This document shows positions 40,949 to 44,714 of a stretch of DNA of 64,000 bases, one piece after another. The stretch covers positions 1 to 64,000 of IMG/VR virus record IMGVR_UViG_3300008448_000040; one strand, 5' to 3'. Source of the DNA: a virus. Each line of letters begins with the position of its first letter. The stretch's first letter is position 1. The position numbers and the translations under genes were made by a program. The notes under the pieces were generated by a model that worked only from the letters and a program-made list of their open reading frames with translations, was not told the origin of the DNA and made no database searches.

Positions 40949-41460
40949 TAGTGCCTCGAGTAGAATACATGCATACCAATTCTAACCTTGCGCTTGAGAT
41001 TCCAGTTAGGTTGAACATATGTTGCATGGAAAAACAGTGAACCTTTAGATGGGTCTTTGTCCCTGATGTTCTTGTGATTCTCAGCAATAATCCTTGCCAT
41101 ATTTTTTATTTGACGATACCTTTGTGGATCGCTGATATGTGGATTCTTACCGAGAATACAGACCCATGAAAACTGGCATACTTCACCTAGTTTTTGATGG
41201 ACTACTCCACAAATGGTGGATGGGAAAGTACCATCAGCAACTCTATTCATTGTTACAAAACCAACTGCACTGACGCCTTTATCAGATTCTGATTTGGCTT
41301 CAAAATACATATTTCTTGCAAGGCACTCAATCTGTTTCTCGGAGTACTTTGTTATGAATGGCTGTTCTTGGACTATGTCGTGATCTGCTTCTGAGAACTC
41401 ATTAGCTGCAAATACTAGTGAACATAGACCAAGCAGTGTTATAAGCACTAGCTTTTTCAT
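40948..41460 (-). CDS. Cell wall hydrolase, SleB/Hydrolase_2 family, with signal peptide
   Basis: CLARNMYFEA, VxxVTMNRV, FPxTICGVVHQ, CQFSW, FFHATYVxPxW, IGxHVFY. Confidence 0.9.
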   Translation of the reverse strand: MKKLVLITLLGLCSLVFAANEFSEADHDIVQEQPFITKYSEKQIECLARNMYFEAKSESDKGVSAVGFVTMNRVADGTFPSTICGVVHQKLGEVCQFSWVCILGKNPHISDPQRYRQIKNMARIIAENHKNIRDKDPSKGSLFFHATYVQPNWNLKRKVRIGMHVFYSRH

Positions 41461-41592
41461 GTTAACTTCCTCTTTGATTAATGAAATGAAGGATAGAGGT
41501 GAAACTTTCAGTTATCCGAATTAAGAGTCAAAACGCAATAATTATCAATAAAACATAATATTTCGAGCCGTGGGCTCTATTGTAGATAGAGT

Positions 41593-41600
41593 TATTTATA
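41593..41600 (-). promoter_or_regulatory. T4-type late promoter TATAAATA
   Basis: Exact TATAAATA on the minus strand in the intergenic region upstream of the SleB hydrolase. Confidence 0.65.
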
Positions 41601-41610
41601 AAAAATATTT

Positions 41611-42276
41611 TTAAGAATCATAAACATACTTTTTTCTTTGCTCCAAAACTTCTTTTCCTACTGTTTCGTGTAACTCTCTTAGTTTCTTATCGGAAGGAAT
41701 GTCAGGCTTGATTGCTAGTTGATCTCTGCAGTCATACTTGAATTCTTTGAATGGTCCATCAGCATCGACATAATGTAAGAATATTTGAGTCATTTCGTTT
41801 CCGAGATAATTACCAGGTCTCCAATGAGGAACTTCACATCCTTTGTAAATAGCTAAATCACCTGGTTCTAACAATACCCTTTCTTCTGATCCATCATCTT
41901 GATCGAAACACATCTCCCAGGGAATAGGATCATAGTAAGTATTGAGAGTGACTGAATATTCACAGCTAGGCCTATCAATATGTTTAGGTAAGATAGAGTC
42001 TTTATAGTAAATCCTAAAATAGCTGTAAGTGGGATATAGTTTTTTACCAGAAACCTCTTCTACCATTGGCTTCAAGTACTCTAATAATGTTTCAGTACAA
42101 CTCCAGCCATATGCTTTAAAGCATTGCTTAGTCATTTTATCTGAAAAATAAGTCAAATCGGATTTGTCTACTCCGAGATTGTAGTAGTAAGTGTCTCTGA
42201 AGATCTTAACTTGCTGATTTATGAATGAAGTCAGCTCTGGAGAGATAGCATTTCTAATAATGTGATATTTATTCAT
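41611..42276 (-). CDS. 2OG-Fe(II) oxygenase-like protein (start probably MNKYH at 42276)
   Basis: LYPTYSYFRIY, HIDRPSCEYSVTL, PGD..IYKGC...HWR, QIFLHYV. The longer track ORF runs into the tmRNA 3' hairpin. Confidence 0.8.
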   Translation of the reverse strand: MNKYHIIRNAISPELTSFINQQVKIFRDTYYYNLGVDKSDLTYFSDKMTKQCFKAYGWSCTETLLEYLKPMVEEVSGKKLYPTYSYFRIYYKDSILPKHIDRPSCEYSVTLNTYYDPIPWEMCFDQDDGSEERVLLEPGDLAIYKGCEVPHWRPGNYLGNEMTQIFLHYVDADGPFKEFKYDCRDQLAIKPDIPSDKKLRELHETVGKEVLEQRKKYVYDS

Positions 42277-42289
42277 AGAGTCAAAAATT

Positions 42290-42610
42290 AATGCCGGCTG
42301 ATTGGGTAATAAGGACAGCCGGCTAAACCCCATCTAGCAATTTAAGCTGCTAGAGCGTAACGCTCGTCATTTGCGTTTACTATTTTGCTTCATTTACGTC
42401 GATCGCCTGACGTGTTGTCCACTCTCCTACTCCTTGCCCTGTCGAAACCATGTCTGGCCCATCAGAAGTGTCCTGCTGTTCACAGGTCGGGAATTCCAAT
42501 CCTCAGAGCTTTGTTAAACCCTTACATATCACCCTAAACAACACTTCTGGTGGACCAGGCGGGAGTCGAACCCGCGTCCAGAACACCTTTTGGTTTGCTT
42601 CATACAACAA
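42290..42610 (-). ncRNA. ssrA: Circularly permuted (two-piece) tmRNA, tag peptide ANDERYALAA
   Basis: Minus strand order: T-arm GCGGGTTCGACTCCCGC plus CTGGTCC-A-CCA (3' end 42548); 87 nt spacer; 5' piece GGGCCAG-ACATGGTTTCGAC (G1 at 42460) forming a 7 bp acceptor stem with G3.U70; tag ORF 42374-42342; terminal hairpin GCCGGCTG...CAGCCGGC. Outer ends are approximate. Confidence 0.93.
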
Positions 42611-42621
42611 TATCTAACACA

Positions 42622-42834
42622 CTATGTAGGATCCACCCCTACGTAACCGACCAGCGGTATCTTAGTCTTGTCGTCGCCTTTGCCACTTCTAGATGAATAG
42701 TGTGTTCTTTTTTGCTGTTCACAATATTCTACACAGTGTCCACAGCAAATGTCAACATCTTTGAGTCTGTTCAACAGTTCATCTGATGTATCGTAGTCTG
42801 ATTCTTTGATGTTTCTGCAAACACAAACAATCAT
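42622..42834 (-). CDS. Bfd-like [2Fe-2S] ferredoxin
   Basis: MIVCVCRNI...CCGHC (CxC...CxxC) motif. Confidence 0.75.
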   Translation of the reverse strand: MIVCVCRNIKESDYDTSDELLNRLKDVDICCGHCVEYCEQQKRTHYSSRSGKGDDKTKIPLVGYVGVDPT

Positions 42835-42846
42835 GAAAACTCCTAG

Positions 42847-42987
42847 TTATCTTATGTAATTTCCTGTCACGACCACATAGATGAACAAGACCCAGCCAAA
42901 CCTAAGAGCAATATCAAACCAACGCTCAAAGTGATCTAACCAAGTCTTGTTCGTTCCAGAGTTTTTAGATTCTGGTGAGAGACTCAT
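42847..42987 (-). CDS. Small single-pass membrane protein (46 aa)
   Basis: Not in track. [46 protein letters not shown]; start overlaps the rubrerythrin stop. Confidence 0.55.
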   Translation of the reverse strand: MSLSPESKNSGTNKTWLDHFERWFDIALRFGWVLFIYVVVTGNYIR

Positions 42988-43418
42988 TGTACTCCTGCGT
43001 TGTAAGCGTCGAGAGTTTTCTTGAACTTACCAGCGTGGCTACGCTCTGCCTTAGCAAGAGTTTCAAACCAGTCAGCAATTTCATCAAACCCTTCATCACG
43101 AGCAGTCTTAGCCATACCAGGGTACATATCAGTATATTCGTGTGTTTCACCCTCGATAGCTGACTCTAGTGCCTGTGCAACATTCTTAACTTCCATACCG
43201 GTTGCAGGATCACCAGCAGCACCGTTCAAAAGGTATTCCATGTGACCATGAGCATGGCCAGTCTCACCTTCAGCTGTATGACGGAACACAGCAGCAACTT
43301 CAGGAGATCCTTCAATGTCAGCCATGTTTGCGAAATATAGATAACGACGGTTTGCTTGTGATTCACCAGCAAAAGCCTCTTTGAGGTTCAACTCAGTTTT
43401 TGTGCCTTTTAAATTCAT
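42984..43418 (-). CDS. Rubrerythrin (short di-iron form without rubredoxin domain)
   Basis: [70 protein letters not shown]. Confidence 0.95.
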
Positions 43419-43427
43419 AATATCTCC

Positions 43428-43454
43428 AAAAAAATGAGCCCCGTGAGGGGCTCA
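43428..43454 (-). terminator. Intrinsic terminator downstream of pqqA
   Basis: TGAGCCCC-TCAC-GGGGCTCA followed by T7 on the minus strand. Confidence 0.85.
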
Positions 43455-43480
43455 ACTATCTAGTGTTGATTGATAGTTGA

Positions 43481-43555
43481 TTAACGATTTGCGATATACA
43501 TTGTGATTTCAAAACCAAAACGCATGTCATTTGCAGTTGGTGTAGTCCACTCCAT
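43481..43555 (-). CDS. pqqA: Pyrroloquinoline quinone precursor peptide PqqA (24 aa)
   Basis: Not in track. MEWTTPTANDMRFGFEITMYIANR with WxxP, RxGFE and the ExxxY core; SD AGGAG upstream. Confidence 0.93.
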   Translation of the reverse strand: MEWTTPTANDMRFGFEITMYIANR

Positions 43556-43635
43556 TTTTATCTCCTATTGTAAAAGCCACAATTGGCTAGACAGTATCTA
43601 GTAAGTTATGACTAAAATACAACTGGGTAAAAACA

Positions 43636-43758
43636 TTATTTATTGCTAATCCATTCACCTGCTTTTGACAGATCTTTACCTGCACCAGATACAGCACCAC
43701 CAAGGGTGCCGCATCCAGTCATCAAAAGCATCAGAACTACTGATGCTAATTTCTTCAT
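43636..43758 (-). CDS. Entericidin EcnA/B-like small lipoprotein (40 aa)
   Basis: Not in track. MKKLASVVLMLLMTGC-GTLGGAVSGAGKDLSKAGEWISNK: lipobox plus GxGKD...GExI amphipathic tail. Confidence 0.7.
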   Translation of the reverse strand: MKKLASVVLMLLMTGCGTLGGAVSGAGKDLSKAGEWISNK

Positions 43759-44714
43759 GCTACCTCCGCCATCTCGACAGCGGTCTCAAGTGCCTTCACC
43801 TTCAAAGCCTTGTTAGGACCATACCAAGCCGATGTCAGACGACCTTCTTGTGTACGACCAACAATGTGGTCAGTCAAGAACGTGACAGCATTGAATGCTT
43901 GCCACCAAGATCCCTCAGCAAACTTGGCACCTGGTTGCTCATAGAGAGCTTCCAAAGCCAGCTCTGCAGACTTGGATAGTTCTTTCTTAACTTTGGTCTC
44001 TTCATTCTTAGAACGACCATAGGCATTGACAGGGAAGATACGGCTGAAGTATTCCTTCACAGTCTCTTCCTTGTACTTCTTGCTGCCCAAGAACTTAGCC
44101 ATCTCTTTGTACTTAGCGAGCTTGTCAGAAGCGATACCCAACGTCTGCTTCACTTGGTCACCATCAAATACACGGCGATGGGATACTTTCACCATATTAT
44201 CTGATTTAGTATTGAGTGACAGCGTAAGAGTATTGTTGCAGACCACGCGTATCGGAGTGAAACGAACGTCAATAGACTGACCAAACTTGTGAGGTAGAGT
44301 GAAAAGTAGATATGACTCCACAGTGTCACCATTGAATACATCAAAGCTCTCCTTGATCTTAGCCAGTGCCCACACGATCTGACCATTTTTCAATGAACCA
44401 GCTGTGTGCATTTCCATGTCACCAGAGCATACGAAGTCGTTAAAGAACTCAAATGCTTCGTGATTCTGCATAGGATTCCAATCTTGCGACACAACATCAA
44501 GGATTTTACCATCAGTTGAGCGTACTAGAGCGTCCTTGCCAGTGTAAACTTGCTTGTCAAACACTTTAGCAAACGTAGGAATCTTCTGAACTTGCCAGTC
44601 AAGACCAGCTGCCTCGAGCATTTGATGTGGTGAAAGGTCAGAAGGAACAGGCTTACCAAGACCATGCCATGGAGTTGCGCCTGCGTATGCCATTGTTTCG
44701 ACTAGATGAGCCAT
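43755..44714 (-). CDS. DUF932 / phage-plasmid LGT family protein
   Basis: METMAYAG.TPWHGLG, AGLDWQV, PMQNHEAFEFF, TAGSLKNG, FTPIRVVCNNTL. Confidence 0.85.
   Translation of the reverse strand: MAHLVETMAYAGATPWHGLGKPVPSDLSPHQMLEAAGLDWQVQKIPTFAKVFDKQVYTGKDALVRSTDGKILDVVSQDWNPMQNHEAFEFFNDFVCSGDMEMHTAGSLKNGQIVWALAKIKESFDVFNGDTVESYLLFTLPHKFGQSIDVRFTPIRVVCNNTLTLSLNTKSDNMVKVSHRRVFDGDQVKQTLGIASDKLAKYKEMAKFLGSKKYKEETVKEYFSRIFPVNAYGRSKNEETKVKKELSKSAELALEALYEQPGAKFAEGSWWQAFNAVTFLTDHIVGRTQEGRLTSAWYGPNKALKVKALETAVEMAEVA

What the first reader, a model, noticed from the sequence alone, without database searches (positions are those of the whole stretch)
42290..42610. Circularly permuted two-piece tmRNA carried by a T4-like phage
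Seen: the T-arm/ACCA half comes before the 5' half. The acceptor stem GGGCCAG/CTGGTCC has the G3.U70 alanine determinant, helix 2 can pair as CAGGGCA/TGTTCTG, and the tag ORF encodes ANDERYALAA*. A terminal hairpin follows, with little room for pseudoknots 2-4. Established: two-piece tmRNAs are known from Alphaproteobacteria, some marine cyanobacteria and a subset of Betaproteobacteria; ANDE..ALAA tags are proteobacterial ClpXP degrons. Inference: the phage maintains ribosome rescue, perhaps against host tRNA/mRNA-cleaving defences. The permuted form may be an independent phage lineage rather than a copy of the host ssrA.
Basis: partly seen in the sequence, partly recalled or inferred. Interest (0 to 1): 0.8.

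Follow-up and report, generated by a model that had tools for sequence, protein, structure and literature searches.

The report
Two-piece tmRNA gene in freshwater phage
A freshwater T4-like phage carries a real, intact gene for a two-piece ribosome-rescue RNA (tmRNA) of the betaproteobacterial type, but such genes are already published for aquatic T4-like phages and are very common in viral metagenome contigs, so this is an ordinary new example.

Summary
ARAGORN calls a permuted tmRNA on the minus strand with the tag ANDERYALAA. Rfam gives beta_tmRNA 140 bits (cut-off 84) and tmRNA_permuted 144.9 bits (cut-off 47). The alpha, cyano and standard tmRNA models all fall below their cut-offs. The contig is a divergent T4-like myovirus (gp6, gp32, gp59 and gp33 present) and occurs in freshwater metagenomes from 10 studies.

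The kind is already known. Buchholz et al. 2022 (PMC9004378) described a two-piece tmRNA in the T4-like phage Melnitz and listed 53 phage genomes with permuted tmRNA. This scan has also noted permuted phage tmRNAs on other DNA many times: 2461 notes in at least 1542 genomes.

One 14-base pattern retrieved 120 IMG/VR loci, and 82 of them carry permuted tmRNAs. At least 29 have the gene in the same slot as here: tmRNA, then cell-wall hydrolase, gp33, gp59 and gp32. Across 73 viral copies, the four core helices are 96% paired with 228 compensatory cells, which indicates selection for function.

The nearest relatives of this copy are viral rather than bacterial, but the branch separating viral from bacterial copies is weakly supported. 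Neither this contig (about 45% complete) nor three complete related phage genomes encode SmpB, and no RNA data were available.

Verdict: a new member of a known kind, of low interest.

The parts
42548..42609 (-). Acceptor piece of the tmRNA. It holds the 5' strands of helix 2 (GTTGT 42608-42604; TGTTCTG 42585-42579), the T-arm (42575-42559), the acceptor 3' strand (42558-42552), discriminator A (42551) and an encoded CCA (42550-42548).
   Evidence: Rfam alignments, ARAGORN, sequence. Covariation across 73 viral homologues: T-arm 100% paired, P2a 98.6%, P2c 95.3%.
42461..42547 (-). Intervening segment of 87 nt, expected to be removed on maturation. It is closed by the stem GAAGTGT/ACACTTC and ends in TGAT just before G1. 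This copy has no credible ORF, only an ATG-TAA start-stop.
   Evidence: Sequence; folds; comparison of intervening segments in 88 homologues.
42283..42460 (-). Coding piece of the tmRNA. In order it holds: acceptor 5' strand GGGCCAG (G3 at 42458 opposite U70 at 42554); the D-loop analogue; the 3' strands of helix 2; hairpin ACGTC/GACGT (42413-42396); the tag frame; hairpin CTAGCA/TGCTAG (42353-42334) with the stop codon in its loop; and a terminal hairpin. The 3' end is approximate.
42342..42374 (-). Tag reading frame: resume codon GCA, peptide ANDERYALAA, stop TAA.
   Evidence: ARAGORN and sequence. Among 82 viral permuted tmRNAs, 73 resume at GCA and 68 tags end in LAA. Bacterial beta-type tags are ANDE[QRNHS][FY]A[ILM]AA.
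42283..42331 (-). 3' element. Hairpin GCCGGCTG/CAGCCGGC (42323-42293) has the conserved loop TCCTTATTACCCAAT and is followed by a T run (42287-42283), so it resembles a terminator. A pseudoknot between GGGG (42331-42328) and CCTT (42314-42311) in the loop is possible.
   Evidence: Sequence. The same loop with a compensated stem occurs in L008. GGGG/CCTT pairs better than the alternative register (10/10 for three of its four pairs in bacteria; 54-57 of 72 for the same three in viral copies). The simple terminator scan did not flag it because the loop exceeds 8 nt.
42726..42755 (-). Sigma-70-like promoter candidate TTGACA-18-TAGAAT (11 of 12 matches), about 110 nt upstream of the acceptor piece and inside the 70-codon Bfd-like ORF. 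A weaker alternative -10 is CATAGT at 42626-42621, which aligns to the TATAAT of the RF01850 model.
   Evidence: Not tested; either or neither may be used.
40712..41460 (-). Downstream genes that define the conserved phage slot: Hydrolase_2 cell-wall hydrolase (41460-40948) and gp33 late-transcription coactivator (40948-40712). gp59 (40715-40125) and gp32 (40068-39139) follow.
   Evidence: PHROG and Pfam hits. The same order and strand downstream of the tmRNA occur in at least 29 of 81 viral loci.

Best explanation
This is a functional, phage-encoded two-piece tmRNA (ssrA) gene of the betaproteobacterial structural type. It sits in a conserved slot just upstream of the hydrolase-gp33-gp59-gp32 block of a freshwater T4-like myovirus.

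Likely mechanism; every step after the gene anatomy is inferred from established tmRNA biology:
1. One precursor is transcribed.
2. Host RNase P cuts before G1 (42460), and host 3' processing trims to the encoded CCA (42548). The 87-nt spacer is discarded.
3. This leaves an acceptor piece of about 62 nt and a coding piece of about 170 nt, held together by the acceptor stem and helix 2.
4. Host alanyl-tRNA synthetase charges the RNA through G3.U70.
5. Host SmpB and EF-Tu deliver it to stalled ribosomes.
6. Translation resumes at GCA and adds ANDERYALAA, which marks the product for ClpXP-type proteolysis and frees the ribosome.

The phage probably gains by keeping ribosomes available while host and phage mRNAs are being cut during infection.
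For: **Shown**
- Two covariance models score far above their cut-offs, and ARAGORN makes the same call.
- Only the beta model passes among the typed models.
- All the sequence and fold features tested are intact: 7-bp acceptor stem with G3.U70, A73, encoded CCA, canonical T-loop, helix 2, Ala resume codon, ALAA-ending tag and stop codon in a hairpin loop.
- In 73 viral homologues, the 24 core pairs are 96.1% paired with 228 compensatory cells. Slid controls gave 9-38 and 500 shuffles gave at most 79.
- Tags are conserved: 68 of 82 end in LAA and 73 of 82 resume at GCA.
- The same gene order occurs in at least 29 independent viral contigs. The closest phage, L028, shares DUF932 at 80%, gp33 at 74% and gp59 at 66% identity.
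- Identical pieces of the gene appear in metagenome contigs from three separate freshwater studies.
- SmpB was not found on this contig, in two complete related viral genomes, or in phage BUCT-ZZ01, so the RNA must use host SmpB if it works at all.

**Published precedent:** Melnitz and 53 phage genomes with permuted tmRNA (PMC9004378).
Against: - There is no RNA evidence at all; no RNA run holds this sequence.
- The promoter is uncertain.
- The second stem of pseudoknot 1 was not established, and the hairpin there is only 75% paired in the alignment.
- The fold z-score of the precursor is modest at -1.8.
- The host is unknown, so compatibility with host SmpB, AlaRS and RNase P cannot be checked.
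- The contig is only about 45% complete, so a phage SmpB elsewhere in the genome is not excluded.
Confidence: 0.85

Rival explanations
1. The RNA is a working tmRNA, but the phage uses it to direct tagging rather than to rescue ribosomes. [quoted passage not shown]
For: Buchholz et al. offer amino-acid recycling as an alternative reading for Melnitz. Many viral relatives carry long, unusual tags of 21-31 residues, which suggests that tag content is under phage-specific selection.
Against: The tag here is a standard 10-residue proteobacterial one, nearly identical to bacterial beta-type tags. Nothing in the sequence separates this reading from plain rescue.
Confidence: 0.08
2. The gene is a recent passenger copy of the host's ssrA, picked up by illegitimate recombination and not maintained for any phage function.
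For: The type matches one bacterial lineage (beta), and the tag is bacterial-like. tmRNA distances do not track gp59 or gp32 distances among phages (Spearman r = 0.03 and 0.12, not significant), so exchange is possible.
Against: - The best hit in a sample of about 400 Burkholderiales genomes is 80% identity over 109 nt. The best viral hit is 76% over 258 nt.
- Bacterial copies score 155-329 bits on RF01850, while this copy and its viral kin score 94-157.
- The slot is conserved in at least 29 phage contigs.
- Viral copies almost always encode CCA (70 of 74), bacterial ones only half the time (7 of 14).
- Compensatory changes are abundant within the viral set.
Confidence: 0.05
3. The gene is an assembly artefact or bacterial contamination, with a bacterial ssrA region stitched into a viral contig.
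For: The conserved tmRNA core attracts many other contigs and breaks assemblies at this point (depth spikes and loose ends).
Against: Phage genes flank it on both sides. The same arrangement is seen in dozens of independent contigs, including complete genomes with terminal repeats. Contigs in other studies bridge the tmRNA into both flanks without differences (records 1, 9, 16, 25).
Confidence: 0.01
4. It is an integration-site mimic: a tmRNA-derived sequence kept as an attP core for integration into the host ssrA.
For: tmRNA genes are frequent integration sites for temperate elements (PMC4383910, listed).
Against: The whole gene is present with all functional features, not only a 3' fragment. 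The backbone is a T4-like virulent type, and no integrase lies among the genes annotated within about 3 kb on either side of the gene.
Confidence: 0.01

Closest known systems
ssrA of Methylophilales (OM43) phage Melnitz and related pelagimyophages (Buchholz et al. 2022, PMC9004378)
   Same: A permuted two-piece tmRNA gene in an aquatic T4-like myovirus, located just upstream of the gp33 late-transcription coactivator. No SmpB was found here; whether Melnitz encodes one was not checked.
   Different: Melnitz's gene groups with alphaproteobacterial (SAR11) tmRNAs and carries a glutamine riboswitch at its 3' end. This one is beta-type (RF01850 140 bits, alpha model below cut-off) and has no riboswitch match at E up to 1. 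This phage is from freshwater, not marine water, and is only distantly related (gp6 is 35% identical to the related pelagiphage HTVC008M).
Betaproteobacterial two-piece tmRNA, Rfam RF01850 (Sharkady and Williams 2004, as cited; e.g. Azonexus, Dechloromonas, Accumulibacter)
   Same: The same gene order, helix 2 layout, hairpin before the tag, tag family ANDExxAxAA, and a single 3' hairpin with the conserved CCUUxUUACC loop in place of pseudoknots 2-4.
   Different: Bacterial copies score 155-329 bits against 140 here. Their spacer is short (4-51 nt against 87). Only half encode CCA. Their last model hairpin (the terminator) is not matched here.
Unannotated permuted tmRNA of Synechococcus phage BUCT-ZZ01 (ON615601, about 116861-117279)
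   Same: It gave the only extended DNA match among 50,697 phage records (two stretches, 42% of the query, 77.5% identical; the other 21 records matched 16-18%). It is beta-type by Rfam (94.5 bits), comes from freshwater, and lies in a T4-like phage of the Kyanoviridae.
   Different: Its tag is ANDETFSMALAA. It sits among tRNA genes rather than next to gp33. Its stated host, S. elongatus, gave no permuted-type match above cut-off in the control searches.
Caulobacter crescentus two-piece tmRNA (Keiler, Shapiro and Williams 2000, as cited)
   Same: It is the experimentally shown model: one precursor from a permuted gene is cut into an acceptor piece and a coding piece that work together.
   Different: It is alpha-type, with a reduced T-arm and a different D-loop analogue. 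The alpha model scores only 46 bits here, while bacterial alpha copies score about 300.
One-piece phage tmRNAs (mycobacteriophage Bxz1 group, Bacillus phage G; PMC4131195)
   Same: A phage-borne ssrA.
   Different: They have standard gene order, different hosts and different phage families.

Membership tests
Permuted (two-piece) tmRNA, Rfam RF04321 / beta type RF01850 | Covariance-model score above the curated gathering cut-off | tested here: met
   RF01850 scores 140 bits (cut-off 84) and RF04321 scores 144.9 bits (cut-off 47).
Permuted (two-piece) tmRNA, Rfam RF04321 / beta type RF01850 | Permuted gene order: T-arm, acceptor 3' strand and CCA lie upstream of the acceptor 5' strand, with a spacer between them | tested here: met
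   ARAGORN makes a 'tmRNA*' call. CCA lies at 42550-42548, G1 at 42460, and the spacer is 87 nt.
Permuted (two-piece) tmRNA, Rfam RF04321 / beta type RF01850 | Alanine identity: 7-bp acceptor stem with G3.U70 and discriminator A73 | tested here: met
   GGGCCAG pairs with CTGGTCC, with G3 opposite U70 and A at 42551. G3.U70 is present in 83 of 88 homologues; the five exceptions are register slips of my extraction.
Permuted (two-piece) tmRNA, Rfam RF04321 / beta type RF01850 | Helix 2 joins the two pieces and is supported by covariation | tested here: met
   P2a is 98.6% paired with 71 compensatory cells, and P2c is 95.3% paired with 51.
Permuted (two-piece) tmRNA, Rfam RF04321 / beta type RF01850 | Pseudoknot 1 upstream of the resume codon | tested here: inconclusive
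   The hairpin ACGTC/GACGT is present and modelled by Rfam. It is 75% paired in the MAFFT alignment. The second stem was not identified.
Permuted (two-piece) tmRNA, Rfam RF04321 / beta type RF01850 | Tag reading frame with an Ala resume codon and a C-terminal hydrophobic-Ala-Ala degron | tested here: met
   GCA at 42374 opens ANDERYALAA, followed by TAA.
Permuted (two-piece) tmRNA, Rfam RF04321 / beta type RF01850 | Processing into two RNAs, charging with alanine, SmpB binding and trans-translation | not testable with these tools
   No RNA run holds the sequence, and no SmpB gene lies on the contig.
Alphaproteobacterial two-piece tmRNA (RF01849) | Score above the gathering cut-off | tested here: not met
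   46.2 bits against a cut-off of 50. Bacterial alpha copies score about 300 bits.
Cyanobacterial two-piece tmRNA (RF01851) | Score above the gathering cut-off | tested here: not met
   38.9 bits against a cut-off of 70.
Melnitz-type riboswitch-controlled phage ssrA | Glutamine (glnA) riboswitch in the 3' domain | tested here: not met
   No such Rfam match at E up to 1 in 41400-43800.
T4-like myoviruses | Core replication, late-transcription and baseplate genes | tested here: met
   gp32 (E=5e-116), gp59, gp33, gp6 baseplate wedge (E=6e-158), tail and baseplate proteins. The best isolate match for gp6 is only 39.6% identical (Caulobacter phage Cr30).

The most novel reading that the evidence does not exclude
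The beta-type permuted tmRNAs of aquatic T4-like phages may form one old, phage-resident lineage. It would be kept in a fixed slot next to gp33-gp59-gp32 whatever kind of tmRNA the host has; phage BUCT-ZZ01, for example, infects a cyanobacterium that gave no permuted-type tmRNA match in the control searches. If so, the tmRNA type says nothing about the host, and phages could have carried permuted ssrA genes between bacterial groups.
Probability: 0.2. Interest if true: 0.5.

Novelty: new member of a known kind. Interest (0 to 1): 0.2.

Why it matters
This gene adds little on its own. It is one more phage ssrA of a published kind. Its modest value lies in three points:

1. The beta-type two-piece tmRNA is widespread in freshwater T4-like phages.
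2. It sits at a fixed genomic position there.
3. It is easily missed or mis-annotated. BUCT-ZZ01's copy lies under a 'hypothetical protein', and an ORF finder runs a false 240-codon frame into the 3' end of this one.

If the viral copies prove to be a single phage lineage, using the tmRNA type as a host clue, as was done for Melnitz, would need caution.

Tried and rejected
- **RNA evidence.** No RNA holder is listed for this sequence. The one read-laying run used DNA contigs only and says nothing about expression or processing. The 'skips 75-82' joints there are other tmRNAs with different spacers, not deletions.
- **Co-divergence test.** tmRNA distance against gp59 or gp32 distance gave Spearman r = 0.03 and 0.12, not significant. 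Vertical co-inheritance is therefore not shown.
- **Deep phylogeny.** The quick tree put one bacterial group inside the viral side. The careful tree put all 15 bacterial copies plus one viral copy on one side, but with bootstrap 10 and SH-aLRT 90. The AU test does not reject a viral clade (p = 0.275). The question is unresolved.
- **Bacterial pattern scan.** Scanning bacterial genomes with the 14-mer returned mostly chance or one-piece tmRNA hits, so it was of little use.
- **Alpha-type outgroups.** Rhizobial alpha-type tmRNAs were fetched as outgroups and then dropped, because their tRNA-like domain is too different to align reliably.
- **Negative searches.** No glutamine riboswitch and no SmpB.
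- **Paper not held.** Sharkady and Williams 2004 (PMC516066) is not held. Statements about it rest on its citation in PMC9004378 and on my own knowledge.
- **Unpublished genomes.** G209, G298 and G383 were flagged as unpublished. Their sequences went into no alignment or tree. They were among the roughly 400 genomes whose best hit (G134) is quoted, and their own hits were weak (E 4e-7 or worse).

Full report
**What is there.** ARAGORN finds one permuted tmRNA in the 64-kb window, on the minus strand at 42251-42640, with the tag ANDERYALAA. Rfam's gathering-threshold scan gives two matches at the same place. RF01850 (beta_tmRNA) scores 140 bits, E=1e-42, spanning 42661-42269. RF04321 (tmRNA_permuted) scores 144.9 bits, E=1.5e-28, spanning 42609-42342. 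The other tmRNA models all fall below their cut-offs on the same stretch: alpha 46.2 bits (cut-off 50), cyano 38.9 (cut-off 70) and standard one-piece 37.2 (cut-off 47). It is therefore a two-piece tmRNA of the betaproteobacterial structural type.

**Anatomy (minus strand).**
- The acceptor piece starts near 42609 with GTTGT, which pairs with ACAAC at 42418-42414.
- It continues to TGTTCTG (42585-42579), which pairs with CAGGGCA at 42441-42435.
- Next come the T-arm GCGGG/CCCGC with loop TTCGACT, the acceptor 3' strand CTGGTCC, A73 and an encoded CCA ending at 42548.
- An 87-nt spacer follows, closed by GAAGTGT/ACACTTC.
- The coding piece starts at G1 = 42460 (GGGCCAG, with G3 opposite U70).
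- It holds a hairpin at 42413-42396 and the tag frame from GCA at 42374 to TAA at 42342.
- A hairpin (42353-42334) carries the stop codon in its loop.
- A final hairpin (42323-42293) is followed by a T run.

Only about 55 nt follow the stop codon, so pseudoknots 2-4 are replaced by one hairpin or pseudoknot, as in the Rfam beta model. The minimum-free-energy fold of the whole precursor reproduces this layout (z = -1.8).

**Genome context.** The window is the first 64 kb of a 78.7-kb IMG/VR viral contig that CheckV rates as about 45% complete. It encodes gp32, gp59, gp33, a gp6 baseplate wedge, tail and baseplate proteins and a carbamoyltransferase, so it is T4-like. It is distant from all isolates: gp6 is at best 39.6% identical (Caulobacter phage Cr30), followed by Stenotrophomonas, Sinorhizobium, cyanophage and pelagiphage relatives.

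Gene order on the minus strand around the tmRNA is: NT5C, DUF932, rubrerythrin, a 70-codon Bfd-like ORF, the tmRNA, a phrog_2954 protein, a Hydrolase_2 cell-wall hydrolase, gp33, gp59 and gp32. The contig's DNA occurs in 20 sequencing runs from 10 studies; 19 are labelled freshwater or lake metagenomes and one is an aquaculture metagenome. Pieces of the tmRNA gene identical to the window occur in three of those studies. The host is unknown. The contig holds no SmpB gene and, apart from the tmRNA, only one tRNA gene (tRNA-Met).

ARAGORN calls a permuted tmRNA in 82 viral loci, counting BUCT-ZZ01. In an alignment of 73 viral copies, the 24 base pairs of the T-arm, acceptor stem and the two parts of helix 2 are 96.1% paired, with 228 cells showing changes on both sides. 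With the 3' partner slid by 1-3 columns, pairing drops to 46-54% with 9-38 such cells. In 500 shuffles, pairing is at most 83.5% with at most 79 such cells (per-pair counts). Tags are conserved at both ends: 46 of 82 start AND, 68 of 82 end LAA, and 73 of 82 resume at GCA. These are working genes under purifying selection, and the window's copy has none of the tested features broken.

**Conserved phage slot.** In at least 29 of 81 viral loci, the tmRNA is followed on the same strand, within 0.25-5.6 kb, by two or more of Hydrolase_2, gp33, gp59 and gp32 in that order, often with NT5C as well. The closest phage found, L028, has the same order on both sides of the tmRNA, with DUF932 80%, gp33 74% and gp59 66% identical. 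Melnitz's ssrA is also described as lying directly upstream of the gp33 coactivator. Three complete related genomes lack SmpB: two viral contigs of 174 and 166 kb rated 100% complete (one has terminal repeats), and phage BUCT-ZZ01. These RNAs must therefore work with host SmpB.

**Phage lineage or host copy?** The window's tmRNA is most similar to viral copies: L027 at 76% over 258 nt, then L106, L023, L088 and L061. The best hit in about 400 sampled genomes of the order Burkholderiales is 80% over only 109 nt. Bacterial beta-type copies score 155-329 bits on RF01850, whereas viral ones score 94-157. Viral copies nearly always encode CCA (70 of 74), and bacterial ones do so half the time (7 of 14).

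In the careful maximum-likelihood tree, 69 viral-contig copies and the window's copy lie on one side of a branch. All 15 bacterial copies plus one viral-contig copy lie on the other. That branch has bootstrap 10 and SH-aLRT 90, and the quick tree had placed one bacterial group on the viral side. tmRNA distances do not follow gp59 or gp32 distances. A separate phage lineage is therefore the simplest reading but is not demonstrated. The sample is biased by the search pattern, and the tree is unrooted and rests on 277 columns.

**Known or new?** It is known. Buchholz et al. 2022 (PMC9004378) describe a two-piece tmRNA in the T4-like OM43 phage Melnitz. They report that 53 of the 133 unique tmRNA genes they found in 402 phage genomes are two-piece by ARAGORN, 50 of them from aquatic phages, and that 17 of 47 Melnitz-like contigs carry one. 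Their Table S1 lists S-CAM1, S-CAM3, S-SSM7, S-CRM01, S-CBWM1, HTVC008M, Mosig, the phiCbK group and others. The 2025 tmRNA database paper counts 79 phage tmRNA sequences and introduces RF04321.

This scan itself holds 2461 notes on permuted phage tmRNAs in at least 1542 genomes. Some of those follow-ups reported small genes inside the spacer. I checked that lead. Several relatives do carry a 24-codon hydrophobic ORF, or ORFs of 59-73 codons, in the spacer. There a Shine-Dalgarno sequence sits directly after CCA and the stop codon lies in the TGAT before G1. The window's own 87-nt spacer has no such ORF.

**Differences from Melnitz.** This copy is beta-type rather than alpha-like, comes from freshwater rather than marine water, and has no glutamine riboswitch.

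**Verdict.** The gene is a new member of a known kind and of low interest. The open points are expression and processing (no RNA data), the promoter, the host, and whether the viral copies are one lineage.

Noticed in passing
L088, L119, L107, L097, L099, L043 (24-codon ORFs); L104, L044, L120, L022 (59-73 codons); all in the spacer of their tmRNA genes: In relatives, the spacer between CCA and G1 carries a small ORF. A Shine-Dalgarno sequence (TAAGGAG) sits directly after CCA, and the stop codon lies inside the conserved TGAT before G1. The 24-residue products are hydrophobic (for example MNDD...VVLVVFAIVLL). The window's own spacer has no such ORF. Earlier follow-ups of this scan already reported this on other DNA.
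   Followed up: partly
L126 3974-4392 = ON615601.1 about 116861-117279 (minus strand): Synechococcus phage BUCT-ZZ01 has an unannotated beta-type permuted tmRNA (tag ANDETFSMALAA, RF01850 94.5 bits). It lies partly under a 'hypothetical protein' CDS and among tRNA genes. Its stated host, S. elongatus, gave no permuted-type tmRNA match above cut-off in the control searches.
   Followed up: partly
window 42622-42834 (-): This 70-codon ORF has a Bfd-like cysteine pattern (MIVCVCRN...CCGHCVEYC) but no Pfam or PHROG hit. A near-consensus sigma-70 promoter (TTGACA-18-TAGAAT, 42755-42726) lies inside it. Homologues sit about 500 nt upstream of the tmRNA in L031 and L074.
   Followed up: partly
window 42984-43418 (-); also L012, L034, L042, L105: A rubrerythrin gene (Pfam PF02915, E=3e-27) lies close to the tmRNA here and in four other T4-like viral loci.
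   Followed up: no
L084, L100 (also L030, L053): These tmRNAs share tags of one family (DNNYMSFATSYALAA, or DNSYMSYANYSYALAA in L053). Rfam types L030 weakly as alpha (60 bits). In L084 and L100 the gene occupies the same slot upstream of Hydrolase_2-gp33-gp59-gp32 as the beta-type copies. Their tRNA-like domain resembles the beta type far more than rhizobial alpha tmRNAs.
   Followed up: partly
window 42418-42491 and 42529-42602: In four freshwater metagenomes, contig depth rises 10-40 fold over the conserved tmRNA core, with many loose ends at its edges. Many co-occurring phages or bacteria appear to share these 60-70 nt, and assemblies break there.
   Followed up: no
window 41611-42333 (-): The mechanical ORF list gives a 240-codon frame that runs into the 3' hairpin of the tmRNA. 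The real start is probably the ATG at 42276, just after the terminator-like T run. The product hits phrog_2954 ('ferrochelatase', E=5e-50) but no Pfam family.
   Followed up: partly
L015, L022, L044, L126: ARAGORN calls tRNAs with anticodon CTA ('tRNA-Pyl', amber suppressor-like) near the tmRNA in several viral loci.
   Followed up: no
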